This document shows, in pieces, positions 36,391-55,050 of a stretch of DNA of 64,000 bases (position 1 is the first letter of the stretch; each line of letters opens with the position of its first letter). The notes below the pieces were generated by a model. The model searched no databases. It was not told where the DNA came from and was given only the letters and a program-made list of their open reading frames with translations. Origin of the DNA: an uncultured Candidatus Saccharibacteria bacterium (lineage in GTDB: Bacteria > Patescibacteriota > Minisyncoccia > Phycocordibacterales > UBA9973); contig CAZSFP010000003.1 in the NCBI GenBank assembly GCA_964606285.1, positions 20,967 to 84,966 of the forward strand. Direction: 5' to 3'. The position numbers and the translations under genes are program-made.

Positions 36391-36654
36391 ATGGATCTGA
36401 AACAAAAAACTCTCGGTGATTTTTTTTCTTCGATTAAAAAAATCATCAATAAAAGTGGAGATCAAAAAGAACGGGTAATTACTATTGTCAAAGGATTGAC
36501 GGGGGTCGTTCTTTCATCATCACAAATCCAATGTTATGAAAATTCTGTTTCCATACATGCATCCCCGATAGAAAAAATGGAAATCCTCAATCGGAAAAAA
36601 ATGATTGAAGAAAAATTGAAATCAGAAACAGGGGAGATGTATACAATTCGGTAA
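36391..36654 (+). CDS. DUF721-like small protein (possible DciA-type helicase-loader homolog)
   Basis: 87 aa, follows dnaN at a 2-nt spacing, and has a hydrophobic/SS pattern (VVLSSSQIQCYENSVSIHASPIEKMEIL) resembling DUF721. The assignment is tentative. Confidence 0.4.
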   Translation: MDLKQKTLGDFFSSIKKIINKSGDQKERVITIVKGLTGVVLSSSQIQCYENSVSIHASPIEKMEILNRKKMIEEKLKSETGEMYTIR

Positions 36655-36709
36655 ATAAAAATCCGACTCATATGAGTCGGATTTTGTTTATATAAATTTA
36701 TTTTATAGA

Positions 36710-37099
36710 TTAATTGAATAATAATTTTATTCCTTTTTCAAACCCATATTTCGGACGTAATTCTTTGTAAAACTTACGTTCTGATTCCAAAAGGGAAGAA
36801 ATCTTATTTTCACGATATTTTTTTGATGAATCAAGAAAATCTTTACCTTCTTTTATACTTGTATTCATTGTTATAAAAAAATCTTGGGCAACAAGAGAAA
36901 GCCCCAGAAATACATCGTCCTTATTTGTTCCAGAAAGTGTTTTTATTGAAACTGCGAGTTCTGGTAATTCAACTGTTTCAATAAATTTTGGAATTGATAA
37001 AGATTCTTCATCTGCACGTTTTTGGGTTTGTTGTTCGAGTCCTTCGAGAAAAGTTGTGATTCCTTGAATCATTTTTTTGTTAAAGCCACAGAGTGCCAT
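36710..37099 (-). CDS. Hypothetical protein
   Basis: 129-aa ORF. Confidence 0.4.
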   Translation of the reverse strand: MALCGFNKKMIQGITTFLEGLEQQTQKRADEESLSIPKFIETVELPELAVSIKTLSGTNKDDVFLGLSLVAQDFFITMNTSIKEGKDFLDSSKKYRENKISSLLESERKFYKELRPKYGFEKGIKLLFN

Positions 37100-37174
37100 A
37101 GGTATATAGTTTTTTAAGTTTTATTTAAGATACCTCTCTGTTGACATTTTTACAAAAATTGCTATATTTTTCCT

Positions 37175-38038
37175 ATGGTAGTAAACTTTAAGTTTAAAAA
37201 TGGACTAGTGTCATCTGGAACACTTCGAGATAAAATCATTGTGTTACTCGGTGAAAAACCATTATCAGGGAGTGATATTGTTGTTGTCTTTTGTAATTCA
37301 AATAATGTTACTCCTCAAGCTGTTTATAAAGCACTTCGTGTCCTTGTTCATGAAGAAATAATTGTTAAAGAAAAACAATTATTTACCTTGAATGCGCTAT
37401 GGCTTTCACATATGAGAAAATTTATTGATATGAGTGAATATATTCTTGGGGTCCATCATGAGCAATCTTTTTTTGATCCACTTTCAAAATCCCGTCAAAT
37501 TACTTTACGATTCAAAAATACAGAACTCCTTGATATATATTGCGGACATTTGTTATTGACACTCTTCGATCGTTTTAAAGGAAAACCAATATTTTTCTAT
37601 AACCATCATGAGTGGTTTATATATGATAGACCGCTTTCAGAAAATTATTTATATGAAAAAGTTGCAGAATCCGGACACAGAGTTTTTTTGACACTGGGAG
37701 CAGATACATCTCTTGCTCGATCATTCAGAAAAAAATTTGAGAAAGGAAACATACAAATCACTATTGATGAATCTTTTTCTATTCCAATAACTGACTATAT
37801 TTGTATTATTGGTGAGTATATTATTACCGCCCGATATGATAGATCGACCGTACAGGCGATCGATAATCTTTTTAAAGTAGCAACATTTACTACTGAAGAT
37901 GATAGTAAAAAATTGCGAAAAATTTTAGATAATTGTACAGATGCTCGAATTATTATAAATCGAAATAATAAACGCGCACAAAAATTAAGAAAAAAATTAG
38001 CGAAGAATTTCATTATTAAAAAAGAAGAATTAGAATAA
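37175..38038 (+). CDS. Winged-helix DNA-binding protein, paralog of 19059..19898
   Basis: PQAVYKALRVLVHEEIIVKEKQLFTL wHTH and the conserved C-terminal INRNNKRAQKLRKKLAKNF. Confidence 0.45.
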   Translation: MVVNFKFKNGLVSSGTLRDKIIVLLGEKPLSGSDIVVVFCNSNNVTPQAVYKALRVLVHEEIIVKEKQLFTLNALWLSHMRKFIDMSEYILGVHHEQSFFDPLSKSRQITLRFKNTELLDIYCGHLLLTLFDRFKGKPIFFYNHHEWFIYDRPLSENYLYEKVAESGHRVFLTLGADTSLARSFRKKFEKGNIQITIDESFSIPITDYICIIGEYIITARYDRSTVQAIDNLFKVATFTTEDDSKKLRKILDNCTDARIIINRNNKRAQKLRKKLAKNFIIKKEELE

Positions 38039-38083
38039 TAAAAAATACCGGACATATGTCCGGTATTTTTTATTTATTATTTT

Positions 38084-42121: not shown

Positions 42122-42376
42122 TTATTCTGCTTCTTCCTCTTCTTCAACTCCACCAATGATATCTGCTGGAATTTCTTCATCTTCGTCGTCCAAGAGATCA
42201 TCGCCTATGTCGCTACCAGTATCGTCTTCATCAGTGATGTCATCGTCTGACATTTTTTTCTTTCGATCATCTATTTCATCTTCTTCGACATAGCCAAATC
42301 CTGAAGCGAGATCGTTGTCTGAGACAACATCTGCCCCTTCTCCAAATTCACTCATGTGTTCGTCATAATACGACAT
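42122..42376 (-). CDS. Small highly acidic protein (hypothetical)
   Basis: Asp/Glu-rich 84 aa. Start set at MSYYDEH. Confidence 0.4.
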   Translation of the reverse strand: MSYYDEHMSEFGEGADVVSDNDLASGFGYVEEDEIDDRKKKMSDDDITDEDDTGSDIGDDLLDDEDEEIPADIIGGVEEEEEAE

Positions 42377-42512: not shown

Positions 42513-42812
42513 ATGTCTCAGCTTTCAACGCACAAAAAAATTCTTCTTGCACTGTTTGTCGTTCTTCTTGTTGGTCTTGCTGCGTTTGTGTATATAAAGT
42601 ATCGACAGCAACATGAAAATGGATCACGGCCGCTCACTGAAGAGCAAAAAGCCGCAATTCTTGCACAATTGGCTGAGGAAAATGACGCACCACCGTTAAC
42701 TGATACACAAAAGACTCAAATTTTGACACAAATTCAAAAAGAACAAAAAAATCCACCGCTCACTGAAGAGCAAAAAGCCGCAATTCTTCTTCAGTTGAGT
42801 CAGGGGAATTAA
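42513..42812 (+). CDS. Membrane-anchored small protein with three ~22-aa tandem repeats (PPLTEEQKAAILxQL)
   Basis: N-terminal TM helix and three internal repeats visible in the translation. Confidence 0.5.
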   Translation: MSQLSTHKKILLALFVVLLVGLAAFVYIKYRQQHENGSRPLTEEQKAAILAQLAEENDAPPLTDTQKTQILTQIQKEQKNPPLTEEQKAAILLQLSQGN

Positions 42813-42818
42813 CCGACA

Positions 42819-44012
42819 ATGTTCAAAAAACTCTTTATTTTCATAGGTTGTATCGCACTCCTCTTTAGTGTTGCCAAGGTTTCTCATGCAGCACAGGTGA
42901 CCGGCTACGCATGGTCAGGAAATATCGGATGGATCAATATGTCTGGTGTGACGATCAATGACCAAACTGGTGCATTTTCCGGTTATGCATGGTCACCGAA
43001 TATCGGATGGATCAATTTTGGATTGACTGGAGTTACTATGGCGGGAGGAACAAATCCCGGCATTCATGCAGTTACCGGTTTTGCCCGTGCATGCACACCG
43101 GCCACCACAGGTCCTGGATCAGGACAATTTTGTAACGACACAGGTAACAGTACCGGATATGGTTCACCAACCAGTGATACCAATACCAACGGGTGGGGAG
43201 GATGGATCAGTATGAGTGGTTCAAATCCAACCTATGGCGTTTCTATAAACATTAACTCATCTGGTCTCGGGACATTTTCTGGATATGCTTGGGGTGACGA
43301 TGTGATTGGTTGGATAAATTTTGCAACAGCAGCACCTATAACTGCACAATTCCCTACAAGTACTATTGGTTGTATGGATCCAATGGCAACAAACTACAAT
43401 CCAAACGCAACGACACCAGGGATGTGTGCTTATGATATTCTAGGCTGTACCAACCCTATAGCAACAAACTACAACCCACAAGCAACAGTTGATGATGGTT
43501 CATGTATCCTTCCTCAAAATTCATCAACGGTTCTTCTCGGAAATGGTCTACCGAATGCTGTAACAGTTTGTGAGGATAAGTTCAATTTTAGTCTTACATG
43601 GCAAAGCCAAAACGTCTCTTCGTGTGTTGTCGGCTCAGGAAACACAGGCCCGTGGCCACCGACGTATAGCAGTACTGTCGGATCAAATGTGACACCGACA
43701 ACAGTTCTCTCTGGTCCGTACTATACGGTCAATCCTGGTGTCTATACTTATGCGATGTCATGTGTTCCGACAGCCACAAGCGCACTCATCCTCACCGTGC
43801 TTCCAAAGACCGATCCAATGTGTGCGCCACCGATTACAGGTTGTATGGATCCAAACGCGACAAACTATAATCCACTAGCAACAATTGCGAATAATGCGCT
43901 CTGTACATATCCAAACAATGTCTGTCCCGCATCAGCACTGAATGCCGGTCAAGCGCCGCCATGTCAGTATCCACAAGGCCCTGGAGGACGTCCGATCTAT
44001 ATTGAAAACTAA
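42819..44012 (+). CDS. Secreted repeat protein: 3x GYAWSxNIGWINF repeats followed by 3x Cys-bounded CxDPxATNYNPxAT...C repeats
   Basis: Signal peptide MFKKLFIFIGCIALLFSVAKVSHA; repeats read directly in the ORF. Confidence 0.55.
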   Translation: MFKKLFIFIGCIALLFSVAKVSHAAQVTGYAWSGNIGWINMSGVTINDQTGAFSGYAWSPNIGWINFGLTGVTMAGGTNPGIHAVTGFARACTPATTGPGSGQFCNDTGNSTGYGSPTSDTNTNGWGGWISMSGSNPTYGVSININSSGLGTFSGYAWGDDVIGWINFATAAPITAQFPTSTIGCMDPMATNYNPNATTPGMCAYDILGCTNPIATNYNPQATVDDGSCILPQNSSTVLLGNGLPNAVTVCEDKFNFSLTWQSQNVSSCVVGSGNTGPWPPTYSSTVGSNVTPTTVLSGPYYTVNPGVYTYAMSCVPTATSALILTVLPKTDPMCAPPITGCMDPNATNYNPLATIANNALCTYPNNVCPASALNAGQAPPCQYPQGPGGRPIYIEN

Positions 44013-44034
44013 TTATCAGCTATACTACAAACAT

Positions 44035-45768
44035 ATGAAACACATCACATCACAATTGAAAGTCACGGTAAAAGTTCTTACGATCGCAATCGTCCTTTTG
44101 CTTGGTACACACATTGCACGTGCAGCAGTCTCTCCGCAGTTCAATCCGCCGACAGGTGCTCCATCCGCAGGAACAAATGTGTATCCTCCAATTCATGAGG
44201 GTGCACAAGCTCAGACAAAGAATGGCGACCTTACTATTGGTATCGGAAACTTTCTCGGTGGAAAAACAATCAAAGGTGACTTTGTGAAAGGTGTGTGGGC
44301 GATGCTTGCGCCAATGATTATTTCAAGTGATGCGAACGGATTTGTTTCAAGTCCAAAATATTGTCTTCCGACACCAGCGCAAACAACAGCCGCAGATTAT
44401 GCACAAAACTGTATTACTACATGGCCAACGGGAGGTAACTTGCCTGCAGGTCAAAACAACCAAACACTTCGACACAATGGTACAACATGGGTTGCAAGCG
44501 ATGCAATCAAAAATATCGTCACACCTGTTCCGTCTGTCCAAATTCTTTTGAACGGCAAAGGTATTGTCGTAAACGGTAACAATGGCGGAACACAAATCGT
44601 TGACGGTACTGCTCCTACGACACAACCACAGTTTCTAACTCGATCGTCGCTGAACGGTGGCTATGCAACATGGGGCCCTGGTTTACCTATGGGAACAATA
44701 AATCAAACAATGCGTCATGATGGAACAAATTGGCTTGCTGACTCTCTTTTGAAAAACAATGGAACAAATCTTGTGAATATTAGTGATCCAGCTTCACCAA
44801 TTCCACCAATTAACCCACCCGTTCCAACTCTTTTGGTTAGTGGTAATGTTGTTGCATTTGATGTTCCGCCGTCAAACTCAAACCCACCAATCACTGGATA
44901 TAGATATGTTAAAGAAATGACGAACACAAGTCCTGTTGTTCAAATAACTGGGTCAAATGATACTCCAGAACTCATAAATTATTGGCAAAATCTTGGTCAG
45001 GGAGGATTTTTCTTGGGAGTAACGGGTCCTGTCAATACCGCCCTTCAGGCGGCACGAATCAGTGGTCCTTGTACTGATGCAACATATGGTGAAACCATTC
45101 CTGCTGGACAAAACTATACACTTGCTCAGACACTCAACTGTAATGATGCTTCATATACTATTACAAACTCTCAGGATACTCGACCGTACGTCTATGAACT
45201 CTACTCTCAGAGAACTGTTCATTCAGGTAGTAATGGATATGTGGAATATATTTTTAAAGCAAATCGATATAAAAGGGAAGCAATATACGGCCAAACACCA
45301 ACGTCTACAGGAGGAACACTTTTTGCTGTTCATGGACAATTTAGTGATCTCAATAGTTCAGCCCCTCTTTCACAAAGTAGTAATGGTGTTTGTTCTGACG
45401 CAAACGGAAAATTGATCCGATGTGCGATTGAAATACCTCAACCAGAACCTCTTGATATCAAGTATGTTCGTCATTCCTGGAGTGATATAAGTTCAAATTC
45501 TTCCAGATATGTATTTTGTCCAAGCTCATACAAGGCAATTGCGGCAAGTTGTGACACTGAAAAAGGAACGCAAGTATGTCAGGTGTACCCTGCTGTAGAT
45601 GGAGAGTTCGGTGTCGGAAGTTGGCCGGTGACAGCAAGTAATGCGTCATTTGCTACAGGAACAGCATGGTCTTCTAGCGGGGTCTATACAGGACGATCGG
45701 GTGGAGAAGTGCAGTGTGATCAAGATAATTGCGATGTCCACATTCAAATTACCTGCGTGATGCCATAA
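44035..45768 (+). CDS. Large secreted Gly/Thr/Asn-rich protein with a Cys-rich C-terminus
   Basis: Start set at MKHITSQLKVTVKVLTIAIVLLLGTHIARA (signal peptide); 577 aa. Confidence 0.5.
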   Translation: MKHITSQLKVTVKVLTIAIVLLLGTHIARAAVSPQFNPPTGAPSAGTNVYPPIHEGAQAQTKNGDLTIGIGNFLGGKTIKGDFVKGVWAMLAPMIISSDANGFVSSPKYCLPTPAQTTAADYAQNCITTWPTGGNLPAGQNNQTLRHNGTTWVASDAIKNIVTPVPSVQILLNGKGIVVNGNNGGTQIVDGTAPTTQPQFLTRSSLNGGYATWGPGLPMGTINQTMRHDGTNWLADSLLKNNGTNLVNISDPASPIPPINPPVPTLLVSGNVVAFDVPPSNSNPPITGYRYVKEMTNTSPVVQITGSNDTPELINYWQNLGQGGFFLGVTGPVNTALQAARISGPCTDATYGETIPAGQNYTLAQTLNCNDASYTITNSQDTRPYVYELYSQRTVHSGSNGYVEYIFKANRYKREAIYGQTPTSTGGTLFAVHGQFSDLNSSAPLSQSSNGVCSDANGKLIRCAIEIPQPEPLDIKYVRHSWSDISSNSSRYVFCPSSYKAIAASCDTEKGTQVCQVYPAVDGEFGVGSWPVTASNASFATGTAWSSSGVYTGRSGGEVQCDQDNCDVHIQITCVMP

Positions 45769-45895
45769 GAAACAAGAAATATAAAATCTATAAAAATCGC
45801 CTTATTCTGTAAGGCGATTTTTAGTTTTCCACAGAAACTTGCTTTTTTATGAAAAATTGGTATAATGATAATGAAATTATTTAAAAACAAGTGCC

Positions 45896-46516
45896 ATGAA
45901 AAAGTTTCTTTTAGCAGTATGTGTGATATTCACCATCTCTTTTTTCCCTCAAAATATTTTTGCTCAAAACCAAAATCCTATTGTTGAGGATATGACTGAT
46001 TATCCCAGCAATAACGATGTATCTTTTACAGTAGTTCTTGATGAAGCTACTGAAATGCCGACAGTTGTAACGGTAAAACATGCAACTGAACAATTGCCAA
46101 GCCCACTGGAATTGGTTGATTCTGTTTTTACCATCACCTCTCCGTTTTTTAATTTTACCATTGATGGTTTAAACGCAGGTAATTATTATTGCACATCTCT
46201 TTCATTTCAAAATGCGACAGGTCAACCGCTCCCGTATCAGTATTGTTTCTGGACGACCGAATCATCTGTTGGTGTTCAGGAAAACACTGCTGTTGAATTG
46301 AATATATATCCTAATCCTGCAAACGACCTGTTGTTTGTGCAATCAGAAATTGACAGTAAGATTTCTATTGCCGATATCCTTGGAAAGAATATTTTTCACA
46401 GGCAATCAAAAGAAATTGTTGAACGTATTGATATCAGAAACCTCCCTATGGGAGCATATTTTGTTACCGTAGAAAATACTCACGGCAAAACAATAAAAAA
46501 AGTACTTGTTCAATAA
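45896..46516 (+). CDS. Secreted protein ending in a T9SS-type (Por secretion) C-terminal sorting domain
   Basis: Signal peptide; the C-terminal ~75 aa (LNIYPNPANDLLFVQSEID...ILGKNIF...IDIRNLPMGAYFVTVENTHGKTIKKVLVQ) match the conserved CTD pattern. Confidence 0.6.
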   Translation: MKKFLLAVCVIFTISFFPQNIFAQNQNPIVEDMTDYPSNNDVSFTVVLDEATEMPTVVTVKHATEQLPSPLELVDSVFTITSPFFNFTIDGLNAGNYYCTSLSFQNATGQPLPYQYCFWTTESSVGVQENTAVELNIYPNPANDLLFVQSEIDSKISIADILGKNIFHRQSKEIVERIDIRNLPMGAYFVTVENTHGKTIKKVLVQ

Positions 46517-46574
46517 TCTTATAGCCCTTTCCTAAAAAATTCCCCAATATTGTTTGGGGAATTTTTATTTGCAT

Positions 46575-47003
46575 TTATTTATCTAATACATCCAAACTCC
46601 AGGCGATGTCGCGAATGCGGGATTCGGAGAATTTCTTTTCATGCGTTTGGGCTTTTTGGATTTCCTCGACTTTTGGTTGTTCCTTGAGGGATTTGTTTTT
46701 TGGTTGTTTCCAGATAAAGAGTTTTCTTTGGAAAATATAGGTGAACCACGCTTCAACGATAAAAATAAACGGTTTTTCATTGACGCGATAGAACGTCAGG
46801 GCGATGGCAAAGGCAATGAGACCGAGCGCGAGGGGAATACCGAGAAATCCCGGCAGGATCCGATAGAGAATGTACGCGCCGCCTGCGCCGCCTGCGAGAT
46901 AGACGAATTGTCGAAACGTGAATGGTCCGAAAATCTTGTCTTCGACGTCGATGAATTGAGGAACGCGAAATTGCATATGAATAGTATAGCAGGTGAAAAA
47001 CAC
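46575..47003 (-). CDS. Small two-TM membrane protein, divergent from the VirB4 operon (possibly VirB3-like)
   Basis: 142 aa with hydrophobic hairpin GGAGGAYILYRILPGFLGIPLALGLIAFAIALTF. The assignment is by context only. Confidence 0.35.
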   Translation of the reverse strand: MFFTCYTIHMQFRVPQFIDVEDKIFGPFTFRQFVYLAGGAGGAYILYRILPGFLGIPLALGLIAFAIALTFYRVNEKPFIFIVEAWFTYIFQRKLFIWKQPKNKSLKEQPKVEEIQKAQTHEKKFSESRIRDIAWSLDVLDK

Positions 47004-47010
47004 GATACCA

Positions 47011-47090
47011 ACTAGTACAGTAGTACGAGTACGTAGTATGTAGTATAAATTCCTAATACTTTGTACTATGTACTCATACTAAGTACTATT
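47011..47090 (+). repeat. GTAC-rich conserved intergenic element, copy 1 (upstream of the VirB4 operon)
   Basis: tagtacgagtacgtagtat ... atactttgtactatgtactcatactaagtact; aligns with 50484-50550 and partly with 33080-33150. Confidence 0.6.
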
Positions 47091-47151
47091 TTTTTTGACT
47101 ATCCACTACAACCTATAACCTATTACACTATTTTTCTGTTATACTTTTTGC

Positions 47152-47793
47152 ATGGCACTCTCCGCACAACGGACGCAAGATTTCGTTCCGATCAAAGAAG
47201 TGCGTGACGGCATCGTCGTGCTCAAAGACGGCGGTCTGCGCGCCATCGTCATGGGTTCATCGGTGAATTTGTCTCTCAAATCGTACGAAGAACAAAAGGC
47301 GACCATCATGCAATTCCAAGCGTTCCTCAACACGCTTGATTTTAGTACGCAAATTGTTGTTCAGTCTCGCCGTCTCGACATCCGTCCATACCTCCTCCTC
47401 CTCGAGGGTGAAATGGCGAAACAGGCAGAACCGCTTCTCAAAGTTCAGACCCGCGAATATATGGAATTCATTAAACAATTCAATGAAGAGGTCAACATCA
47501 TGACTAAACATTTTTTTATTGTTGTTCCATACAGTGAAGAAGCACTTCAATCAAGCGGTGCAGGGTCTGGGTTTTCATTGTCGTCCATATTTGGTGGCAA
47601 GGATGAAAGCAAGAAACAAATGCAAGCGAATTTTGAAGAAAAGCGCAATCAGCTCGAGCAGCGCATCGCAGTCATTCAACAAGGTCTCGGTCGTGTCGGG
47701 GTCAAATCCGAACAATTGACTACAGAGGCGGTGATCGAACTGTTTTACAAGACATTTAATCCTGGCGACAGTCAGGCGTCGGTCGGAAAATAA
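47152..47793 (+). CDS. N-terminal ~210-aa segment of a VirB4/TrbE-family ATPase, encoded as a separate ORF
   Basis: QDFVPIKEVRDGIVVLKDGGLRAIVMGSSVNLSLKSYEEQ... resembles the first conserved block of VirB4/CagE/TrbE N-termini. The stop lies 1 nt before the next ORF's start, in a different frame. Confidence 0.55.
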   Translation: MALSAQRTQDFVPIKEVRDGIVVLKDGGLRAIVMGSSVNLSLKSYEEQKATIMQFQAFLNTLDFSTQIVVQSRRLDIRPYLLLLEGEMAKQAEPLLKVQTREYMEFIKQFNEEVNIMTKHFFIVVPYSEEALQSSGAGSGFSLSSIFGGKDESKKQMQANFEEKRNQLEQRIAVIQQGLGRVGVKSEQLTTEAVIELFYKTFNPGDSQASVGK

Positions 47794-47794
47794 T

Positions 47795-49885
47795 ATGTCA
47801 TTCATTTCAGATTTTTTTTCAAAAAAGAAAACCCCTGCGCAAACCGATACGCACGCAGTACTGCCGGTGCTGCCGGCTGAAATTTATGAGCAGGCAACGC
47901 TCGAGCTTCAGGATGTCATCGCGCCATCAGCACTTGAAATCTCTCCGAAAAATTTGCACCTCGGCGACAAGATCGCTCGGACATTTTTCGTCATCGCATA
48001 TCCGCGCTTTTTGACCGACAACTGGTTCTCACCTATCATCAATCTCGACAAGATTTTTGATGTCTCTATTTTCATTCACCCGATTGAGACGAGTGAGATT
48101 CTCCATACATTTCAAAAAAAAGTCGCAGAAGTCCAGAGTCAGATCAATGTTCGTGAGAGTAAAGGTCTCGTTCGCGATCCGATGCTCGATACCGCGTATC
48201 GTGATCTCGAATCGCTCCGCGACAATCTCATGCAGGCGCAGGAGAAAATGTTTGAAGTCGGACTCTATATCACTATCTATGCCGACAATGACATAGAACT
48301 ATTCAAGGTTGAAACAGAAGTCAAAACAATTCTCGAATCACGCATGGTCTACATCAAGCCGGCGTTGTTCCAGCAAAAAGAAGGATTCATGAGTATGATT
48401 CCGACTGGCATGGACCTCATCAATGTCCACCAGAAACTCAACTCTGAACCACTCTCGTCTATTTTCCCATTCGTGTCATTTGACCTCACGAGTGAGAAGG
48501 GGATTCTCTATGGAGTAAATCGTCACAATTCGAGTCTTGTTATCTTTGACCGCTACTCACTCGAGAACTATAACTCTGTGCTCTTTGCAACATCTGGCGC
48601 AGGTAAGTCATTTGCGACAAAATTGGAAATTCTCCGAACACTCATGTTTGGTACGAGTGTTATTGTTATTGATCCAGAAAATGAATACAAATACCTTGCC
48701 GAAGCGGTTGGTGGACGCTATTTCAATATTTCACTTTCGTCCGATCACCATATCAATCCGTTCGATTTACCGATCCCACGCGAAGACGAAACTGCTGCTG
48801 ATGTCCTTCGTTCAAATACGATCAATCTCGTCGGACTTTTCCGTGTGATGTTGGGTGGGCTGACACCGGCAGAAGACTCAATCATCGATCAGGCGATTAC
48901 GGAAACCTATGCGATCAAAGATATCAGTCCCGAATCTGATTTTTCAAACATTGAGCCGCCACTATTGTCTGACTTTGAAATGGTACTTGCGGGCATGGAC
49001 GGTACCGAATCGATTATCGCTCGGCTCACTCGCTATACCAAGGGTACATGGGCACGATTCTTGAACCAAGCGTCGAACGTCAACATCGACAAAAACATGG
49101 TGGTTTTCTCTATTCGCGACATGGAAGACGAATTGAAACCAGTGGCGATGTATATCGTGACGCATTATATCTGGAATGAAATCCGCAAGAATTTGAAAAA
49201 GCGTCTCCTTGTTGTCGATGAGGCATGGATCATGATGAAAACTGAAGATACGGCGTCATTCCTCTTTGGTATTGCAAAGCGTGGCCGAAAATACTTTCTC
49301 GGTCTCGCGACGATCACACAGAACGTCGATGACTTTATGGGATCAAAATATGGTGTGGCTATCGTGACGAATGCGTCGATCGCACTGCTCCTCAAACAAT
49401 CTCCGAGTAATATTGCCTTGGTTCAAAAAACATTCAACCTGACAGATGAAGAAAAATATCTTCTCCTCGAATCTGGTGTTGGGGAAGGTATTTTCTTTGC
49501 CGGACTCAAACACGTTGCGATCAAAGTCATCGCTTCATATACTGAACAACAAATCATTACTTCAGATCCGTCACAACTCCTCGCGATCAAGGCCGCCAAG
49601 GATGAACTTGCGCAGTCTGAACAAGGTATAAATGAAGGATCACCGCTCAATGTTGGACAAGACATCATACAACAAGAGAAAGATGCACAAAAAATAGAAA
49701 CAACGTCAACACCTGTATCACCGGCACAAGAGCAATCACCAGAAGTTCAAGAAATTCCTGTAGAAAAAGAAACACCAGTAATTCCGGAAGTGCAATCTGG
49801 GGCAATCACGATAGATGATGATGCATCTGCTCGCTTGATCGAAGAATTACGCGCGCTTGAAAGTGATTTTGGTGGTAAGATATAA
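47795..49885 (+). CDS. VirB4/TrbE/ConE-family type IV secretion ATPase (main body)
   Basis: N-proximal block ALEISPKNLHLGDKIARTFFVIAYP, Walker A LFATSGAGKSFATK, Walker B LLVVDEAW and an acidic/Pro-rich C-terminal tail. Confidence 0.8.
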   Translation: MSFISDFFSKKKTPAQTDTHAVLPVLPAEIYEQATLELQDVIAPSALEISPKNLHLGDKIARTFFVIAYPRFLTDNWFSPIINLDKIFDVSIFIHPIETSEILHTFQKKVAEVQSQINVRESKGLVRDPMLDTAYRDLESLRDNLMQAQEKMFEVGLYITIYADNDIELFKVETEVKTILESRMVYIKPALFQQKEGFMSMIPTGMDLINVHQKLNSEPLSSIFPFVSFDLTSEKGILYGVNRHNSSLVIFDRYSLENYNSVLFATSGAGKSFATKLEILRTLMFGTSVIVIDPENEYKYLAEAVGGRYFNISLSSDHHINPFDLPIPREDETAADVLRSNTINLVGLFRVMLGGLTPAEDSIIDQAITETYAIKDISPESDFSNIEPPLLSDFEMVLAGMDGTESIIARLTRYTKGTWARFLNQASNVNIDKNMVVFSIRDMEDELKPVAMYIVTHYIWNEIRKNLKKRLLVVDEAWIMMKTEDTASFLFGIAKRGRKYFLGLATITQNVDDFMGSKYGVAIVTNASIALLLKQSPSNIALVQKTFNLTDEEKYLLLESGVGEGIFFAGLKHVAIKVIASYTEQQIITSDPSQLLAIKAAKDELAQSEQGINEGSPLNVGQDIIQQEKDAQKIETTSTPVSPAQEQSPEVQEIPVEKETPVIPEVQSGAITIDDDASARLIEELRALESDFGGKI

Positions 49886-49893
49886 TTATTCAT

Positions 49894-50478
49894 ATGGATC
49901 CGATGCAATCACAAACAAATACATCATCTGATGTTCCGGCACAAACAGTACCCGCGGTGTTTGATCTTGATGCACCAATAACAAAAGTTTCTGAAACAAA
50001 ACCATCTGGTTCAATTGCGGATTATTTTTCTGCGCCAATAAAAAACCCTGCGGGACCGTCATCTGTGCCAACTTCAACCCCATCACCTGCATCAGACATT
50101 CCTGCTGTGGTGGATTCTATAGAATCGATCGAGAAGGATTTCAAAGCGGAAATTGGAAAAAACCCTGAACAGACGATCAATGGCGGTATAAAACCGAGCC
50201 GGGGAGTCTTTGAACTCGATATCGAACGACTCGATATGGTTATCGGCAGACTAACACAGACGATTGAATCACGCGAAGCAACTGTTCGTGGCAAAATGGC
50301 GACCTTGAAAGCACTTCGTACAGAGATAGAAAACGACATTGCAGGTATCAAGGGTCTTGAAAAAGAAAAATCTCTCGCGCTTGCTGACAAGAAAAAGATC
50401 ACTGATCTTCATACGCAGGAACTCGATATTGAGAAACATATTGATACGTATGAGAAAGACACAGAATCTATAGTATAA
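49894..50478 (+). CDS. Hypothetical coiled-coil protein in the VirB4 operon
   Basis: 194-aa ORF, 8 nt after the VirB4 stop; heptad-like C-terminal half. Confidence 0.45.
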   Translation: MDPMQSQTNTSSDVPAQTVPAVFDLDAPITKVSETKPSGSIADYFSAPIKNPAGPSSVPTSTPSPASDIPAVVDSIESIEKDFKAEIGKNPEQTINGGIKPSRGVFELDIERLDMVIGRLTQTIESREATVRGKMATLKALRTEIENDIAGIKGLEKEKSLALADKKKITDLHTQELDIEKHIDTYEKDTESIV

Positions 50479-50483
50479 AGGAC

Positions 50484-50550
50484 TTAGTACGAGTACATAG
50501 TATTTTTAGTTTCATACTAAATACTTTGTACTTGTACTTCATACTCATTT
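50484..50550 (+). repeat. GTAC-rich conserved intergenic element, copy 2 (upstream of the 50596-60036 operon)
   Basis: tagtacgagtacatagtat ... atactttgtacttgtacttcatactcatt. Confidence 0.6.
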
Positions 50551-50595
50551 TCTGTACACAGTAACTCCTTCTTTTTATTTTCTTGGCATTATATA

Positions 50596-51573
50596 ATGAG
50601 ATCAATGAAATATCTCTCGATTATCATACTTTCATGTGTTTGTTTTTTTGGTGTGACACATGGCGTTGCACATGCAGAACTTCGAGAAAATGACATTTCC
50701 GCTACAGTAACACCGGAAATTCCTGGTCCAAATGAAGACATTCAATTTCTCTTCTCTTCATTTTCTTTGGATATCAACCGAGTGATGTTTGTTTGGAAGG
50801 TTGACGGCAAGACAGAACTTTCTGGTATCGGCAAAACAAATTTTATGACAAAGTCCGGTCCTGTGGGATCAAAAAAAACGATCACCGTGACACTCAATTA
50901 CCAAGGCGACAGCTTGACCAAAACATTTGTCATCCAACCGACCTCACTCGATCTCCTTTGGGAGGCCGTTGATACGTATCGTCCACCGTTTTACAAAGGA
51001 AAAACACTTCCGGGATCGGAAGCAAAAATAAAAATTGTTGCTCAACCTGATATGAAAGGGGTGGCTGGCAAGCAGGTGAGTGCGAGTAATATGCTTTTTT
51101 TCTGGAAGCGGAACTATACGACTGCACAGGCGGCTTCGGGATATGCAAAAAACAGTTTCACATTCAAACATAATTATTTGAACAAAAATGAAATTGTGTC
51201 CGTCATCGGAACAGATTTCGAGTCAGGGAAGTCAGCAAGTGCAACTTTTTCACTCAAGCTTTCAAATCCAAAAATTCTTTTTTATGGTGTTACCAGTGAT
51301 CTCGGTATCTGGTTTAACAGTGCTTTGTCGAACAACCAGGCTCTTTCTTCTCTCGTAACACAGATTTTTGCTGCGCCGTACTCATTTGCACCACGTGAAG
51401 CAAAAAGTGGAGAATTTTCTTTTGCGTGGTCAATAAACGGCGTGTCTGCGACTGCTAATACTATTAGAAATATGATTACTGCTGGTTCTGGTGTTTCGTC
51501 AATCGGTTTGCGCATCGAAAGCAATCCGCGATTGTTTCAGACTGCTGAAAGCCGCATAAATTTCTCAAAATAA
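50596..51573 (+). CDS. Secreted hypothetical protein
   Basis: Signal peptide MRSMKYLSIIILSCVCFFGVTHGVAHA. Confidence 0.5.
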   Translation: MRSMKYLSIIILSCVCFFGVTHGVAHAELRENDISATVTPEIPGPNEDIQFLFSSFSLDINRVMFVWKVDGKTELSGIGKTNFMTKSGPVGSKKTITVTLNYQGDSLTKTFVIQPTSLDLLWEAVDTYRPPFYKGKTLPGSEAKIKIVAQPDMKGVAGKQVSASNMLFFWKRNYTTAQAASGYAKNSFTFKHNYLNKNEIVSVIGTDFESGKSASATFSLKLSNPKILFYGVTSDLGIWFNSALSNNQALSSLVTQIFAAPYSFAPREAKSGEFSFAWSINGVSATANTIRNMITAGSGVSSIGLRIESNPRLFQTAESRINFSK

Positions 51574-51574
51574 T

Positions 51575-53695
51575 ATGAAATATTTTTTCCTCTCACTTTG
51601 CATACTTCTCGGATCATTCTTTGTTTCATCTGAACAGGTTTTTGCTGTGATAAACCTCAATCCGGCAACAACAACGGTTAGTATGAGTATCAATTCACTC
51701 AATACTCAAAACGGAACTATTGGATTCAAGGCGCATGTCATGAATACGGGTATTATACCAAGCACACCAACGTACAGTGTTATCAATACTCTCAGTGTCA
51801 ATAATAGTGGGGTTGCGAGTACATCTTTTTCTGGTTTGGTTGCCGGTGGCTCGTATCTCGTTCAAATCAAATCATATCCTTTGTCTGATCCAACTGATTT
51901 GTCTCTTGATCAAGAAAAACCATTTCAAACACAAGCACAGTCTCCAACGTTAACATCTCTTTCTGTTACTAGTGGCAATCAAGGACAAGTAATGACCGTC
52001 AACATGACGGGAACAAATTTTGTAAACGGGGCGACAGCAAACTTTGGTGCCAATATCAGCAACACGATAACATTTGTCAGCCCAACTCTTTTGAAGGCAG
52101 ATATTATCATAGCGAACAATGCGAGTGCTGGACCAAGAAGCGTAACAGTCACGAGCGGGGGAAACACAACAGCGCCAAAAACATTTACTGTTGTAGCAAA
52201 TCAGGGGACGGCATTTTCTATCGTTGGTGCATCACCAGTTTTTACAGCAGAACCAAATGATCCCAGCTTGGCACATGTCACTATGACCGTGACATTCAAC
52301 GGTGATCCGATGTCTGCCCCAGCAGCAGGTATCACGCTCGTGACAAGTACTGACAATCCTGCGACAGTGAATACTGTATACAATGGACCTGTCACAGGAA
52401 GTGCACAAACAGTTACCGGTAACTCATATGCAGTTGAACTTTCAAACGTGCCACTCAATACGACATATTCATATATCATAAAGAATGCAACGACAGGCGC
52501 GACTATGTATGGCCCAAAGACATTTACTGCCAGCCTCAATACGACACCACCACCGACGGATGCATGTCCAAATGAACCTGGGGTGCAACCAACAGGACCG
52601 TGTAATAACATGGAAAATGATGTTTGTACCAATGAACCTGGGATTCAGCCACCAGGAACACAGTGTCAAACAGTGTTATATACACTTCTCGAGCCGATCA
52701 TGGGCGTGACGGCGATCAACACAGCATCTGACCTTGCGACATTTTTCAACTTTCTTTTTAAGATGCTCATCGGACTCTGTAGTTTGCTTGCGGTTATCAT
52801 GATTATCATCGGCGGTATCGAATATCTCACAACCGAAGCGTTCACAGGCAAGAGCAATGCTCGCGATCGCATCGAAAATGCCGTAACTGGTCTTGTGCTC
52901 CTTGCGGCAATTTATCTTATTCTCTATACGATCAACCCAAATTTGTTGCGATTGAATATCGATTTGAAGGCGATTGAAACGCATATAGATGGTGTCACTC
53001 TTTCTGATGTTCAGTTTATTTCTGACGCTCAGTTTTCTAGTATTACAGGACATAGTCCTATTGCACCTGCGGCATTGGAAGGAGTGATAAATTCAGTTGC
53101 TCAATCGTACAGTATTGATGCATGTGCGATAAAGGCGATTATTGAAAAAGAATCAAACTTTAGAGTTGGTGCAATAGGTCATGATGAAAATGCCGGTCTA
53201 TCAAATCCGGCTTCGCGAACGAAGAGTGCAAAAGCATTTGTTGCGTCGCTCAAAAAATATACCGGAACAGTATTTACAACAAGCACTATTCCCTCGAGAA
53301 ACGATGATGAAACAAATGATCACAATGTTCTCGATCCAAACAGCCCCGGACTCGGCCTTGATTGGCGTTTTAGTCATGGTATAGGTCTCATGCAGGTCAC
53401 ATTTTTTCCACCTGCATATCAAGTAGATGGTTATACGACAAATCCACCTGCGTGGAGTACGAGAAACACGCACCCAACAAGAAACGGGCAGACACCAAAA
53501 CAAATGATGACAGAAGCAACAAACATCTCAAATGGTGCGTTGATCTACAAGAATTTTTTAACAAGCGATGCTTGTGGCAATGATCCATTGAAAGCATTTT
53601 CTGCTTATAATGCAGGAACAGTCGGGTGTACGACACCGACAGCATATGGTCAGATAGTTTTTGCCAACTACACTGCCTGCATGAACGGACAATAA
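51575..53695 (+). CDS. Multi-domain envelope protein: signal peptide, Ig-like surface repeats, hydrophobic helical hairpin, and a C-terminal lytic-transglycosylase (SLT/VirB1-like) domain
   Basis: TM pair (LLAVIMIIIGGIEYLT ... GLVLLAAIYLILYTI). SLT motifs AIIEKESNF (catalytic Glu-Ser) and GLMQV in the C-terminal ~200 aa. Confidence 0.65.
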   Translation: MKYFFLSLCILLGSFFVSSEQVFAVINLNPATTTVSMSINSLNTQNGTIGFKAHVMNTGIIPSTPTYSVINTLSVNNSGVASTSFSGLVAGGSYLVQIKSYPLSDPTDLSLDQEKPFQTQAQSPTLTSLSVTSGNQGQVMTVNMTGTNFVNGATANFGANISNTITFVSPTLLKADIIIANNASAGPRSVTVTSGGNTTAPKTFTVVANQGTAFSIVGASPVFTAEPNDPSLAHVTMTVTFNGDPMSAPAAGITLVTSTDNPATVNTVYNGPVTGSAQTVTGNSYAVELSNVPLNTTYSYIIKNATTGATMYGPKTFTASLNTTPPPTDACPNEPGVQPTGPCNNMENDVCTNEPGIQPPGTQCQTVLYTLLEPIMGVTAINTASDLATFFNFLFKMLIGLCSLLAVIMIIIGGIEYLTTEAFTGKSNARDRIENAVTGLVLLAAIYLILYTINPNLLRLNIDLKAIETHIDGVTLSDVQFISDAQFSSITGHSPIAPAALEGVINSVAQSYSIDACAIKAIIEKESNFRVGAIGHDENAGLSNPASRTKSAKAFVASLKKYTGTVFTTSTIPSRNDDETNDHNVLDPNSPGLGLDWRFSHGIGLMQVTFFPPAYQVDGYTTNPPAWSTRNTHPTRNGQTPKQMMTEATNISNGALIYKNFLTSDACGNDPLKAFSAYNAGTVGCTTPTAYGQIVFANYTACMNGQ

Positions 53696-53712
53696 TTGCT
53701 ATACTATTTACA

Positions 53713-55050
53713 ATGTCACGCATAGCTAAAATTTCCATCATTACGCTTATCGTCATCATCCTCGCTATTGGTGCAGTATTTCTTTTTGCAAAAATAAAAA
53801 ATCCGACAACACCGGTGACGACATCTGTTCGCAACCTGTTTCCATTTGGCACATCTTCAAATATTCCATCGACAGATGATAGTGGTACTGATGTAGTCGT
53901 TGTTCCTCCGTCAGAAACAGGTCCGTATGTCCCACCACGACTCCGCAAGATTACTGACTTTGCTGTTGCTGGACTCATTCCTCTTTCCAAAGAGCGTATT
54001 ATTCCACAACCTGTTACCACAGAAGGCACAGCATCGTTTCCTGTAACAACTCCTGCGCCTGCGACAGGGAAGAAACCAAAAACACCAGCAGTGCCAAAGG
54101 TTCCAACCGAAACAGTTACCACTGTTCGTTTCGTTGCCCGGTCAAATGCTGCTGTATATGAAAGCGATGTCGACAAAAAAGACCTTGAACGCTTGACGGT
54201 GACGTATATCCCGCGTATTTATGAAGCATATTTTGGCAATGCCGGTGACGACGTGATCCTTCGCTATTTGTCTGATGATTATCAAACGATCCAAACATAT
54301 CTTGCCCATATCCCAAAGCGTGCAGACCTCGCAATAAACAAAGATTTGACTGGCGAATTCTTGCCGGAAAATATCACAGACGTTGCGGTATCGCCTGATA
54401 TGAAAAAATATTTTTATCTTTTTTCTTCTGGAGAGACAACAAATGGTATCATGGGTACGTTTGGTGCATCAGCAAAATCACAAATTTTTTCTCACGGATT
54501 TTCTGAATGGTTGCCGACATGGACGAGTGCGGGAACGATTGTCCTCACGACAAAACCTTCCGCTACTGCACTTGGCTATGCATACGGTCTCGATATAGTA
54601 AAAAAAACATTGACCAAATACATGAACGCAACGCCAGGTGGCTACGCAGTCCTTTCGCCAAACGCAAAAACACTTCTCTATAGTGCGGCGGGAACAAGTG
54701 TCTCTCTCAATACAAAGCCAGTTGCAACATCCGGAGAACCAACGTCACTCGGGATTCAAACTCTTGCTGATAAATGTGTCTGGAACAGTACCTCGACTGC
54801 CATTTATTGTGCGGTGCCAACATCGCTCGCTGCAACGCTCCCTGACAGCTGGTATCAGGGAACTGTTTCTTTTTCTGATTTACTTTGGAAAATTGACACT
54901 GTGACTGGTGTTTCGACTCTTCTGGCAAATCCGGAAAAAGATGTTTCAGTTCCGATCGACATGACGAATCTCGCTCTTGATCCATCTGAATCGTATCTCT
55001 TTTTCATCAACAAAAAAGACGCGACCTTGTGGAGTTACTCACTCAAATAA
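53713..55050 (+). CDS. Signal-anchored hypothetical protein
   Basis: N-terminal TM ISIITLIVIILAIGAVFLFA. Start set at MSRIAKI. Confidence 0.5.
   Translation: MSRIAKISIITLIVIILAIGAVFLFAKIKNPTTPVTTSVRNLFPFGTSSNIPSTDDSGTDVVVVPPSETGPYVPPRLRKITDFAVAGLIPLSKERIIPQPVTTEGTASFPVTTPAPATGKKPKTPAVPKVPTETVTTVRFVARSNAAVYESDVDKKDLERLTVTYIPRIYEAYFGNAGDDVILRYLSDDYQTIQTYLAHIPKRADLAINKDLTGEFLPENITDVAVSPDMKKYFYLFSSGETTNGIMGTFGASAKSQIFSHGFSEWLPTWTSAGTIVLTTKPSATALGYAYGLDIVKKTLTKYMNATPGGYAVLSPNAKTLLYSAAGTSVSLNTKPVATSGEPTSLGIQTLADKCVWNSTSTAIYCAVPTSLAATLPDSWYQGTVSFSDLLWKIDTVTGVSTLLANPEKDVSVPIDMTNLALDPSESYLFFINKKDATLWSYSLK

What the first reader, a model, noticed from the sequence alone, without database searches (positions are those of the whole stretch)
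42513..46516. Cluster of secreted repeat proteins upstream of the secretion module, one ending in a T9SS-type C-terminal sorting domain
Four consecutive plus-strand genes encode envelope or secreted repeat proteins. The first is a membrane-anchored protein with 3x PPLTEEQKAAILxQL repeats. The second carries 3x GYAWSxNIGWINF repeats plus 3x Cys-bounded CxDPxATNYNPxAT..C modules. The third is a 577-aa Gly/Thr-rich protein. The fourth has a C-terminus (LNIYPNPANDLLFVQ...GAYFVTVENTHGKTIKKVLVQ) that looks like a Por/T9SS C-terminal sorting domain. No T9SS machinery genes are visible in the window, so a CTD here is unexpected. It may be recognised by a different sorting system, or reflect horizontal acquisition.
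Basis: partly seen in the sequence, partly recalled or inferred. Interest (0 to 1): 0.6.

Follow-up and report, generated by a model that had tools for sequence, protein, structure and literature searches.

The report
T9SS sorting domain in CPR bacterium
A tiny symbiotic (CPR) bacterium, of a group thought to lack an outer membrane, keeps a conserved four-gene set of exported surface proteins, one ending in a genuine sorting tag otherwise used only by the Bacteroidota outer-membrane secretion machine, probably gained by gene transfer and now doing another job.

Summary
Four consecutive plus-strand genes (42513-46516) encode exported proteins with the stated repeats. The fourth ends in a real type A T9SS C-terminal domain (PF18962 56.7 bits, cutoff 27; TIGR04183 44.2, cutoff 23). 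The organism is a Candidatus Nomurabacteria/Paceibacteria (CPR) bacterium. The neighbouring secretion module is the monoderm-type T4SS described for this group. The four genes are a recurring cassette. A g1-g2-g3 core trio occurs on 7 contigs with all three genes and on 11 counting partial copies. The Fn3+CTD gene follows g3 on 8 contigs. All four genes are under purifying selection (dN/dS 0.08-0.19; CTD 0.20). The cassette is absent from 78 of 80 related Nomurabacteria T4SS loci. In other genomes it sits beside rpsL, so it is not an obligate T4SS part. g4 keeps the Bacteroidetes 'Q-rule' signal-peptide cleavage site. It has a full-length homologue next to an outer-membrane barrel gene in a diderm contig, which supports horizontal exchange. 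No T9SS or outer-membrane gene lies in the window, but the whole genome could not be checked. Most likely this is a host-contact surface-protein cassette in which the CTD works as a binding or assembly module, not a T9SS signal. Moderately interesting.

The parts
42513..42812 (+). g1: 99-aa single-pass membrane protein. It has an N-terminal TM segment (about residues 9-30) and three PLTEEQKAAILxQL helical repeats predicted to lie outside the cell. First gene of the core trio.
   Evidence: Homologues occupy the same position in L001, L082, L083/L084, L089 and L166 (family HMM). L014 has a 117-aa TM analogue there. dN/dS against L001 is 0.16.
42819..44012 (+). g2: 397-aa exported protein. Signal peptide; GxAWS/GWIN repeat region at residues 29-170 (nt 42903-43328); Cys-bounded NYNP modules at nt 43371-43427, 43446-43505 and 43842-43904, flanking a domain of about 100 aa; conserved C-terminal tail PGGRPIYIEN (nt 43980-44009).
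   Evidence: The tail G-G-x-x-P-I-[YI]-x-E-x-COOH occurs only on GxAWS proteins among about 15,000 ORFs screened and again in L169. dN/dS 0.08. No Pfam, NCBIfam or PHROG hit.
44035..45768 (+). g3: 577-aa exported protein. It has an N-terminal signal or anchor segment, a conserved N-terminal region of about 165 aa (motif [WF]xxP[TS]GxP..N...P[IVL][NH].G...Q.K.G.L) and a lineage-variable C-terminal domain that is Cys-rich here.
   Evidence: The C-terminal part differs between copies. L083 has a Gly_rich_2 / tail-fibre PHROG domain. L089 is only 322 aa. dN/dS 0.14. No PDB sequence match.
45791..45823 (.). Terminator-like hairpin that closes the g1-g2-g3 operon.
   Evidence: The stem has 14 pairs with T-runs on both sides. 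The g1/g2 and g2/g3 gaps are only 6 and 22 nt.
45839..45866 (+). Promoter-like site for g4: TTGCTT, 16-nt spacer, extended -10 TGgTATAAT.
   Evidence: Read directly from the sequence. The simple scan did not list it. Function is inferred.
45896..46516 (+). g4: 206-aa exported protein. Signal peptide at residues 1-23 with cleavage IFA|QNQ (nt 45896-45964); Fn3-like 7-strand sandwich at residues 30-119 (nt 45983-46252); disordered linker at 120-136; type A T9SS CTD at residues 137-206 (nt 46304-46513).
   Evidence: Orthologues or homologues follow g3 in L001, L082, L089, L167, L168, L169 and L173. dN/dS 0.19; CTD part 0.20.
46535..46566 (.). Bidirectional terminator-like hairpin between g4 and the convergent PrgI gene.
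   Evidence: The stem has 13 pairs and is followed by a T-run.
46575..55050 (.). Neighbouring module, not part of the cassette: monoderm-type (MPF_FATA-like) T4SS core. Genes are PrgI (minus strand), TrsD, VirB4, p194, p325, p706 (CoaZ repeat + T4SS pilin + SLT) and p474.
   Evidence: The core is conserved in 80 Nomurabacteria/Paceibacteria loci. It is described in preprint 10.1101/2025.01.22.634366.

Best explanation
The region is a chromosomal surface-protein cassette of a subclade of Candidatus Nomurabacteria/Paceibacteria (CPR).

The g1-g2-g3 operon encodes three proteins:
- g1, a membrane-anchored helical-repeat protein.
- g2, a GxAWS-repeat protein with disulfide-bounded NYNP modules and a family-specific C-terminal tail.
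- g3, a fibre-like protein with a conserved N-terminal part and a variable C-terminal domain.

g4 is separately transcribed and encodes a small Fn3-like domain fused to a genuine type A T9SS C-terminal domain.

All four proteins leave the cytoplasm through Sec, via N-terminal signal or anchor sequences. g4 is shared by horizontal transfer with a T9SS-bearing diderm, probably Bacteroidota. It has since been kept by selection. This lineage is taken to be monoderm and to lack a T9SS. If so, the CTD cannot act as a T9SS signal in its own cell. It most likely works as a stable Ig-like binding or assembly module. The cassette as a whole most likely mediates contact with a host cell or surface.

Shown: the domain identities, cassette recurrence and gene order, purifying selection, transcription-unit signals, CPR affiliation, and the Bacteroidota-type features of g4.

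Inferred: absence of a T9SS and an outer membrane genome-wide, the direction of transfer, and the adhesion or host-contact role.
For: - CTD identity. The g4 model has two 7-strand sandwiches, matching the 3+4 Ig-like CTD fold described in PMC11285876.
- CPR affiliation: all 80 best VirB4 loci (75-81% identity) come from Nomurabacteria, Paceibacteria or Patescibacteria MAGs. Window gene content fits.
- Recurrence: the full trio is present in the window, L001, L082, L083, L089, L014 and L166. Partial copies are in L167, L168, L169 and L173. g4 follows g3 on 8 contigs.
- Selection: dN/dS is 0.08-0.19, and 0.20 for the CTD. PNP, G163, GxY and K202 are invariant or nearly so across family members of 23-81% identity.
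- Export: only N-terminal hydrophobic segments are present, with no LPXTG and no C-terminal TM.
- Transfer: A|Q cleavage sites (PMC5837995). P0140's N-terminal domain scores 87.5 bits against an HMM trained on cassette members only, and it lies beside DUF5723. The g2 modules are shared with CTD-bearing proteins.
- Fibre-like modularity of g3.
- Context: the preprint reports that no PrgB-type adhesins were detected in CPR T4SS loci, so surface proteins of this kind are not yet catalogued.
Against: - No direct evidence of adhesion exists. g1-g3 have no hits in Pfam, NCBIfam or the PDB.
- The g2 structure model failed (pLDDT 43).
- T9SS absence was tested only in 64 kb and in the short cassette contigs.
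- The taxon of L171 is inferred from a single neighbouring gene.
- The tree of about 180-aa sequences is not robust, so the direction of transfer is open.
- Conservation of the CTD motifs would also fit continued recognition by some T9SS component.
Confidence: 0.55

Rival explanations
1. The cassette is a dedicated accessory of the adjacent T4SS. Its proteins would be the adhesins or substrates of the monoderm-type T4SS, playing the role that PrgA/PrgB/PrgC play upstream of prgI-prgJ in Enterococcus pCF10.
For: - The cassette lies directly upstream of PrgI-TrsD-VirB4 in the window, L001 and L083.
- In 65-70 of 80 related loci, a different conserved set of signal-peptide or TM proteins occupies the same upstream position.
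- The preprint notes that Gram-positive T4SSs rely on surface adhesins and that none has been detected in CPR.
Against: - In L082, L089 and L169 the cassette lies beside rpsL-rpsG-fusA, with no T4SS gene on the contig.
- In L014 it is separated from VirB4 by PPase and NusA.
- It is absent from 78 of 80 related T4SS loci.
- In the window, terminators separate it from the T4SS genes and PrgI is convergent.
- There is no homology to PrgA/B/C and no LPXTG motif.
Confidence: 0.2
2. Host-T9SS mimicry. The CPR cell exports g4, and its CTD docks onto PorV or the attachment complex on the surface of a Bacteroidota host. This would tether the epibiont, or interfere with host secretion.
For: - CTD motifs relevant to T9SS function are conserved under selection in a lineage that apparently has no T9SS: the beta3-beta4 loop DxxGK and the C-terminal K-rich strand (PMC11285876).
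- g4 retains the Q-rule cleavage site.
- g4 and g2 both share modules with T9SS cargo.
- CPR bacteria are obligate epibionts (background).
Against: - The host of this lineage is unknown.
- The conserved residues are also structural core residues of the fold.
- CTDs are often not interchangeable even between Bacteroidota species (PMC11285876).
- No experimental precedent is known to me for a CTD acting from outside the cell.
Confidence: 0.08
3. Ordinary T9SS cargo. The organism, or this contig, actually belongs to a diderm that encodes a complete T9SS elsewhere.
For: The CTD and the A|Q signal peptide are canonical. Only 64 kb of a contig of at least 152 kb is visible.
Against: - g4 is embedded in collinear CPR housekeeping genes (dnaA, dnaN, PBP1a, TyrRS, YidC) and the CPR-type T4SS. 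The same layout occurs in a second assembly.
- Seven other contigs place g4 homologues after g3-like genes.
- The home-made CTD profile found a CTD only in g4 and its homologues across the window and the CPR-context loci L001-L084, about 1.3 Mb.
Confidence: 0.03
4. Decaying relic. g4 is a recently transferred gene with no function in the CPR cell.
For: g4 has a lower GC content (0.356) than its neighbours (0.40-0.47) and is missing or replaced in L014 and L083.
Against: - dN/dS is 0.19 against dS 0.64.
- Reading frames are intact in 8 cassette copies that have diverged to 24-45% identity.
- g4 has its own promoter-like and terminator-like signals.
- GC3 (0.28) matches g1 and g3 (0.29).
Confidence: 0.05

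Closest known systems
Type A T9SS C-terminal domain cargo of Bacteroidota (PF18962 / TIGR04183; e.g. RgpB, and the F. johnsoniae cargo CTD chains in 8GLJ and 8GLK)
   Same: g4 has an N-terminal Sec signal peptide with an A|Q cleavage site and a passenger domain. A flexible linker joins it to a C-terminal 7-strand Ig-like CTD. The PNP, DxxGK, GxY and K-rich terminal motifs are present. Profile scores are about twice the curated cutoffs.
   Different: It is encoded in a CPR (Nomurabacteria-type) genome whose neighbouring T4SS is of the monoderm type. No T9SS or outer-membrane gene is in view. It is part of a conserved CPR cassette. The passenger is only a small Fn3-like domain.
Surface adhesin genes prgA/prgB/prgC upstream of the T4SS genes of Enterococcus pCF10 (MPF_FATA class)
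   Same: A block of exported surface-protein genes sits directly upstream of PrgI (VirB3-like) and VirB4 in a monoderm-type T4SS locus.
   Different: There is no sequence homology and no LPXTG/sortase signal. The cassette is separately terminated and is found away from the T4SS in other genomes.
Phage tail-fibre / receptor-binding proteins
   Same: The g3 family has a conserved N-terminal part and swapped C-terminal domains. The L083 copy hits tail-fibre PHROGs and Gly_rich_2. The NYNP modules of g2 also occur in proteins that look phage-like to me (my impression, not tested).
   Different: Window g3 and g2 have no PHROG hit, and g2 has no match in 50,697 phage records. The genes have signal peptides and sit among chromosomal housekeeping genes.

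Membership tests
T9SS type A C-terminal sorting domain (PF18962 / TIGR04183) | Profile match above the curated cutoff, located at the extreme C-terminus | tested here: met
   PF18962 gives 56.7 bits against 27, over residues 137-205 of 206 and profile positions 1-75 of 75. TIGR04183 gives 44.2 against 23. Homologues in L082 and L089 score 43.7 and 40.6 bits.
T9SS type A C-terminal sorting domain (PF18962 / TIGR04183) | Seven-strand Ig-like 3+4 beta-sandwich fold | tested here: met
   The AlphaFold2 model has 7 strands in residues 137-205, with block pLDDT of about 79-89 from residue 141 on. This fits the architecture described in PMC11285876. Whole-model Foldseek returned only generic tandem Fn3 pairs.
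T9SS type A C-terminal sorting domain (PF18962 / TIGR04183) | Conserved motifs (PNP in beta1, DxxGK loop, GxY, basic C-terminal strand) | tested here: met
   P139, N140, P141, G163, G186 and Y188 are invariant. K202 is nearly invariant across 10 family members.
Functional T9SS cargo | N-terminal Sec signal peptide | tested here: met
   The N-terminus reads MKKFLLAVCVIFTISFFPQNIFA|QNQ. The hydrophobic core is followed by A|Q. This is judged from the sequence alone, since no signal-peptide predictor was available.
Functional T9SS cargo | T9SS machinery (SprA/Sov, PorK/L/M/N, PorU, PorV) and an outer membrane in the same genome | tested here: not met
   No such gene is in the 64-kb window or on the cassette contigs. 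The rest of the genome is not available, so absence genome-wide rests on general knowledge of CPR. It also rests on the monoderm-type T4SS.
Functional T9SS cargo | CTD removed by PorU and the protein attached to A-LPS or released | not testable with these tools
   This needs proteomics or biochemistry.
MPF_FATA T4SS surface adhesins (PrgB/PrgC type) | Homology to PrgA/B/C and an LPXTG cell-wall anchor | tested here: not met
   g1-g3 have no Pfam or NCBIfam hit. There is no LPXTG motif.
MPF_FATA T4SS surface adhesins (PrgB/PrgC type) | Consistent linkage to the T4SS genes | tested here: not met
   The cassette is adjacent to the T4SS on 3 contigs and 5 kb away in L014. It lies beside rpsL on 3 contigs. 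It is absent from 78 of 80 related T4SS loci.

The most novel reading that the evidence does not exclude
g4 is an epibiont-made mimic of host T9SS cargo. A CPR cell exports it through Sec. Its CTD is then captured by PorV or the PorU attachment complex exposed on a Bacteroidota host. This would couple the g1-g3 surface fibre to the host envelope, or jam host secretion. It would be the first case of a secretion-system sorting domain used in trans between organisms. It would also point to Bacteroidota as hosts of this Nomurabacteria clade.
Probability: 0.07. Interest if true: 0.9.

Novelty: new variant of a known kind. Interest (0 to 1): 0.5.

Why it matters
T9SS C-terminal domains are treated as diagnostic of T9SS cargo and are used to name proteins automatically. 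A CTD kept under selection inside a conserved CPR gene cassette shows one of two things. Either the fold has a T9SS-independent role, or it is used against T9SS-bearing neighbours. Both bear on two open questions: how CPR epibionts attach to hosts, and who those hosts are. No host is known for Nomurabacteria as far as I am aware, and no adhesins have been detected in CPR T4SS loci. The g1-g2-g3 trio is a concrete set of candidate surface proteins to test. So is the conserved C-terminal tail of g2 and the swapped C-terminal domains of g3. The case also documents gene exchange across the CPR/Bacteroidota boundary.

Tried and rejected
- The word-indexed homology search for g4 found only itself and one orthologue. 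The exhaustive HMMER search was needed to find the family.
- The listing of cluster members returned no names for 10 family members, so taxonomy had to come from gene context.
- The metagenome scan with the family alignment failed at first because no stretch was conserved enough. The rerun used the CTD motif and returned almost only CTD-only matches. One locus, L089, was useful.
- The g2 structure model was unusable (pLDDT 43), so the fold of the GxAWS repeats is unknown.
- Foldseek of the whole g4 model returned only generic tandem Fn3 pairs.
- g2 has no match in the phage collection. PHROGs gave nothing for window g2-g4, and only a weak spanin-like hit for g1 that I discount.
- g3 has no PDB sequence match.
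- Literature searches for CTD or T9SS in Patescibacteria or Parcubacteria found nothing relevant.
- I rejected misassembly or contamination, because the layout is collinear in a second assembly and the g3-g4 pair recurs on 8 contigs.
- I rejected 'recent relic', on dN/dS and on divergence within the family.
- The taxon of L171 could not be established beyond its DUF5723 neighbour.

Full report
**1. Observation**

The four plus-strand ORFs are present as described.

- g1 (42513-42812, 99 aa) has one N-terminal hydrophobic segment and three PLTEEQKAAILxQL-type repeats.
- g2 (42819-44012, 397 aa) has a signal peptide and three GYAW(S/G)..GWIN(F/M) repeats. It also has three Cys-bounded CxDPxATNYNPxAT..C modules.
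- g3 is best read from 44035 (577 aa), which matches its orthologues. It is moderately rich in G, T and S.
- g4 (45896-46516, 206 aa) matches PF18962 Por_Secre_tail at 56.7 bits against a cutoff of 27, E 3e-15, over the full profile length at the extreme C-terminus. It matches TIGR04183 at 44.2 bits against 23. Its tail aligns to solved cargo CTD chains 8GLK_D and 8GLJ_D and to a lipase CTD, 7PZJ.

An AlphaFold2 model of g4 was built from a 10-sequence family alignment (mean pLDDT 78). It shows a signal helix, a 7-strand Fn3-like sandwich (residues 30-119), a disordered linker, and a second 7-strand sandwich (137-205). That second domain fits the 3+4 Ig-like CTD fold described in PMC11285876.

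**2. Organism and neighbourhood**

The downstream module is PrgI (minus strand), TrsD, a CD1110-family VirB4, and a T4SS-pilin+SLT fusion. The 80 best VirB4 relatives among species-representative genomes are 75-81% identical. All come from Candidatus Nomurabacteria, Paceibacteria or Patescibacteria MAGs.

The rest of the window is CPR-style housekeeping: PilB, RuvB, RuvC, ComM, XerC/D, M23 peptidase, CCA-adding enzyme, DnaA, DnaN, PBP1a, TyrRS and YidC. Nothing resembles T9SS or outer-membrane biogenesis. No ORF is longer than 862 aa.

A 2025 preprint (10.1101/2025.01.22.634366) describes exactly this T4SS. It is related to the monoderm MPF_FATA class, lies near dnaA, lacks a relaxase, and has no detectable PrgB-type adhesins.

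**3. The four genes are a recurring cassette**

A second assembly (GCA_054403375.1, locus L001) is collinear from dnaA to YidC and contains all four genes. Context look-ups and family HMMs then found further copies.

| Locus | Arrangement |
|---|---|
| L082 | NusA(-), g1-like, g2-like, g3-like, g4-like with CTD, Y1 transposase, rpsL |
| L089 | Full cassette, then rpsL-rpsG-fusA |
| L169 | g2-like (cut by the contig end), g3-like, g4-like with CTD, then rpsL-rpsG-fusA |
| L083/L084 | NusA(-), g1, g2, g3-like, an unrelated 153-aa secreted protein, then PrgI-TraC-VirB4 |
| L014 | VirB4 ... PPase(-), NusA(-), TM protein, GYAW protein, g3-like, PilB; no g4 |
| L166, L167, L168, L173 | Partial copies on short contigs |

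The g1-g2-g3 trio is therefore the core. All three genes are present on 7 contigs, and 11 contigs carry at least part of the cassette. The Fn3+CTD gene follows g3 on 8 contigs.

In the window the trio is packed tightly, with gaps of 6 and 22 nt, and ends in a hairpin at 45791-45823. g4 has its own extended -10 promoter-like site (TTGCTT, 16-nt spacer, TGgTATAAT; 45839-45866). It shares a bidirectional hairpin (46535-46566) with the convergent PrgI gene.

**4. Relation to the T4SS**

The PrgI-TrsD-VirB4-p325-p706-p474 core is conserved in essentially all 80 related loci. None of them carries g4, and only L014 and L073 carry g2-like or g3-like genes.

In 65-70 of those loci, a different conserved set of signal-peptide or TM proteins lies upstream of PrgI. 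Its members are about 640, 270, 900 and 350 aa and have no Pfam hits. That set is absent from the window.

The position upstream of the T4SS core therefore holds alternative exported-protein sets. The cassette is also found beside rpsL with no T4SS gene in view. Linkage to the T4SS is loose, and I treat 'dedicated T4SS adhesins' as a rival rather than the main reading.

**5. Selection**

Comparing the window with L001 gives dN/dS of 0.16 (g1), 0.08 (g2), 0.14 (g3) and 0.19 (g4). The g4 CTD alone gives 0.20, with dS around 0.6-0.8.

Across g4-family members of 23-81% identity, the PNP, G163, GxY and K202 positions are invariant or nearly so. The CTD is being maintained, not decaying.

**6. Origin**

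An exhaustive HMMER search found about 5,600 CTD-only matches. It also found a small full-length family of roughly 200 aa proteins.

- Every family member has a signal peptide ending A|Q. This is the Bacteroidetes-specific Q-rule (PMC5837995).
- One full-length homologue, P0140, lies outside any cassette. Its N-terminal domain scores 87.5 bits (E 5e-27) against an HMM trained only on cassette members.
- P0140 lies two genes downstream of a DUF5723 protein. DUF5723 is a 16-strand outer-membrane barrel family. It is found in P. gingivalis OMVs and is listed next to a T9SS CTD protein there.
- P0140 is 38% identical to the L082 copy. That is closer than the two CPR subclades are to each other, at 24-32%.
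- P0275, a weaker relative, sits in a clear Bacteroidota-type contig with C10 and C25 peptidases bearing CTDs.
- 798 proteins match the C-terminal half of g2 (NYNP modules plus a middle domain). Of the top 120, 14 carry PF18962 and 16 carry PF13585.

Two cassette genes thus share modules with T9SS cargo. Horizontal exchange with a T9SS-bearing diderm is well supported. Its direction is inferred, not shown.

**7. Mechanism**

All four proteins have only N-terminal export or anchor signals. They have no LPXTG motif and no C-terminal TM segment.

I infer Sec export, with g1 retained in the membrane and g2-g4 outside the cell. g3 has a conserved N-terminal region and swapped C-terminal domains. 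The L083 copy carries a tail-fibre-like Gly-rich domain, and the L089 copy is short. This is the pattern of receptor-binding fibres.

The lineage is assumed to be monoderm and T9SS-free. On that assumption the CTD cannot be a secretion signal in its own cell. The most economical reading is an Ig-like binding or assembly module within a host-contact surface apparatus. This step is inference.

A bolder reading, which the data do not exclude, is that the CTD engages PorV or the attachment complex of a Bacteroidota host.

**8. Unexplained**

Every GxAWS-repeat protein seen except L073's ends in G-G-x-x-P-I-[YI]-x-E-x-COOH, or in two cases a looser variant. Examples:

- window and L001: GGRPIYIEN
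- L083: PIKPIYIEN
- L082: GGINPIIKET
- L089 and L169: GGINPIYQET
- L014: GGKPIIEEF
- P0017: PSIIEG
- P0024 and P0093: PPGYKEI

A strict tail pattern found no other protein among about 15,000 ORFs screened. This looks like a family-specific C-terminal recognition or assembly signal. I know of no matching system.

**9. Verdict**

An alternative sorting system is untested, and the whole-genome T9SS check was not possible.

The feature is a new variant of a known kind: a T9SS-type CTD protein fixed in a CPR surface-protein cassette. Interest is moderate, at 0.5.

Noticed in passing
window 43980-44009; L014:16572-18134; L082:3679-5157; L083:4535-6115; L089:952-2079; L169:2-988: GxAWS-repeat proteins almost all end in a conserved tail G-G-x-x-P-I-[YI]-x-E-x-COOH. 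A strict version of the pattern hits no other ORF among about 15,000 screened. It may be a new C-terminal sorting or assembly signal.
   Followed up: partly
window 45896-45970 and g4-family proteins P0002, P0129-P0132, P0140, P0237: All g4-family signal peptides end A|Q. This is the Bacteroidetes 'Q-rule' (PMC5837995), retained in the CPR copies. No glutaminyl cyclase is in the window; the rest of the genome was not available.
   Followed up: partly
window 46575-47003 (-): PrgI is inverted (minus strand, convergent with g4) in the window, L001 and L004. In the other related loci where it was found, it lies on the same strand as VirB4.
   Followed up: partly
L002-L081, about 1-7 kb upstream of PrgI (e.g. 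L038:4294-8844, L049:2275-8891): 65-70 of 80 Nomurabacteria T4SS loci carry a conserved upstream set of signal-peptide or TM proteins (about 640, 270, 900 and 350 aa) with no Pfam hits. The set is absent from the window. These may be alternative surface or adhesin sets for the CPR T4SS.
   Followed up: partly
L082:7553-8224 and L168:2149-2820: A Y1 (IS200/IS605-type) transposase gene, 84% identical between the two contigs, immediately follows the g4-like gene. None is present in the window.
   Followed up: partly
window 42122-42376 (-): A small, very acidic ORF (84 aa from the shorter start, D/E-rich) is divergent from g1. It is conserved in L001 (76% identity, dN/dS 0.17) and has no family hit.
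   Followed up: no
window 51575-53695 (+): A 706-aa fusion protein combines a choice-of-anchor-Z repeat (NF058597), a T4SS pilin domain (just below the Pfam cutoff) and an SLT lytic transglycosylase domain. It sits inside the T4SS core.
   Followed up: no
window 36400-38040: The region between dnaN and PBP1a is variable. The window has a 287-aa ORF (37175-38038) in a stretch of GC 0.32, with no Pfam hit. L001 has 87-aa and 200-aa genes there instead.
   Followed up: no
window 44035-44530 and g3-family N-termini (L014:18164-19414, L082:5219-6691, L083:6136-8043, L089:2140-3108): The mature N-terminus of g3-family proteins carries a conserved motif, [WF]xxP[TS]GxP..N...P[IVL][NH].G...Q.K.G.L. 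Lineage-specific C-terminal domains follow it.
   Followed up: partly
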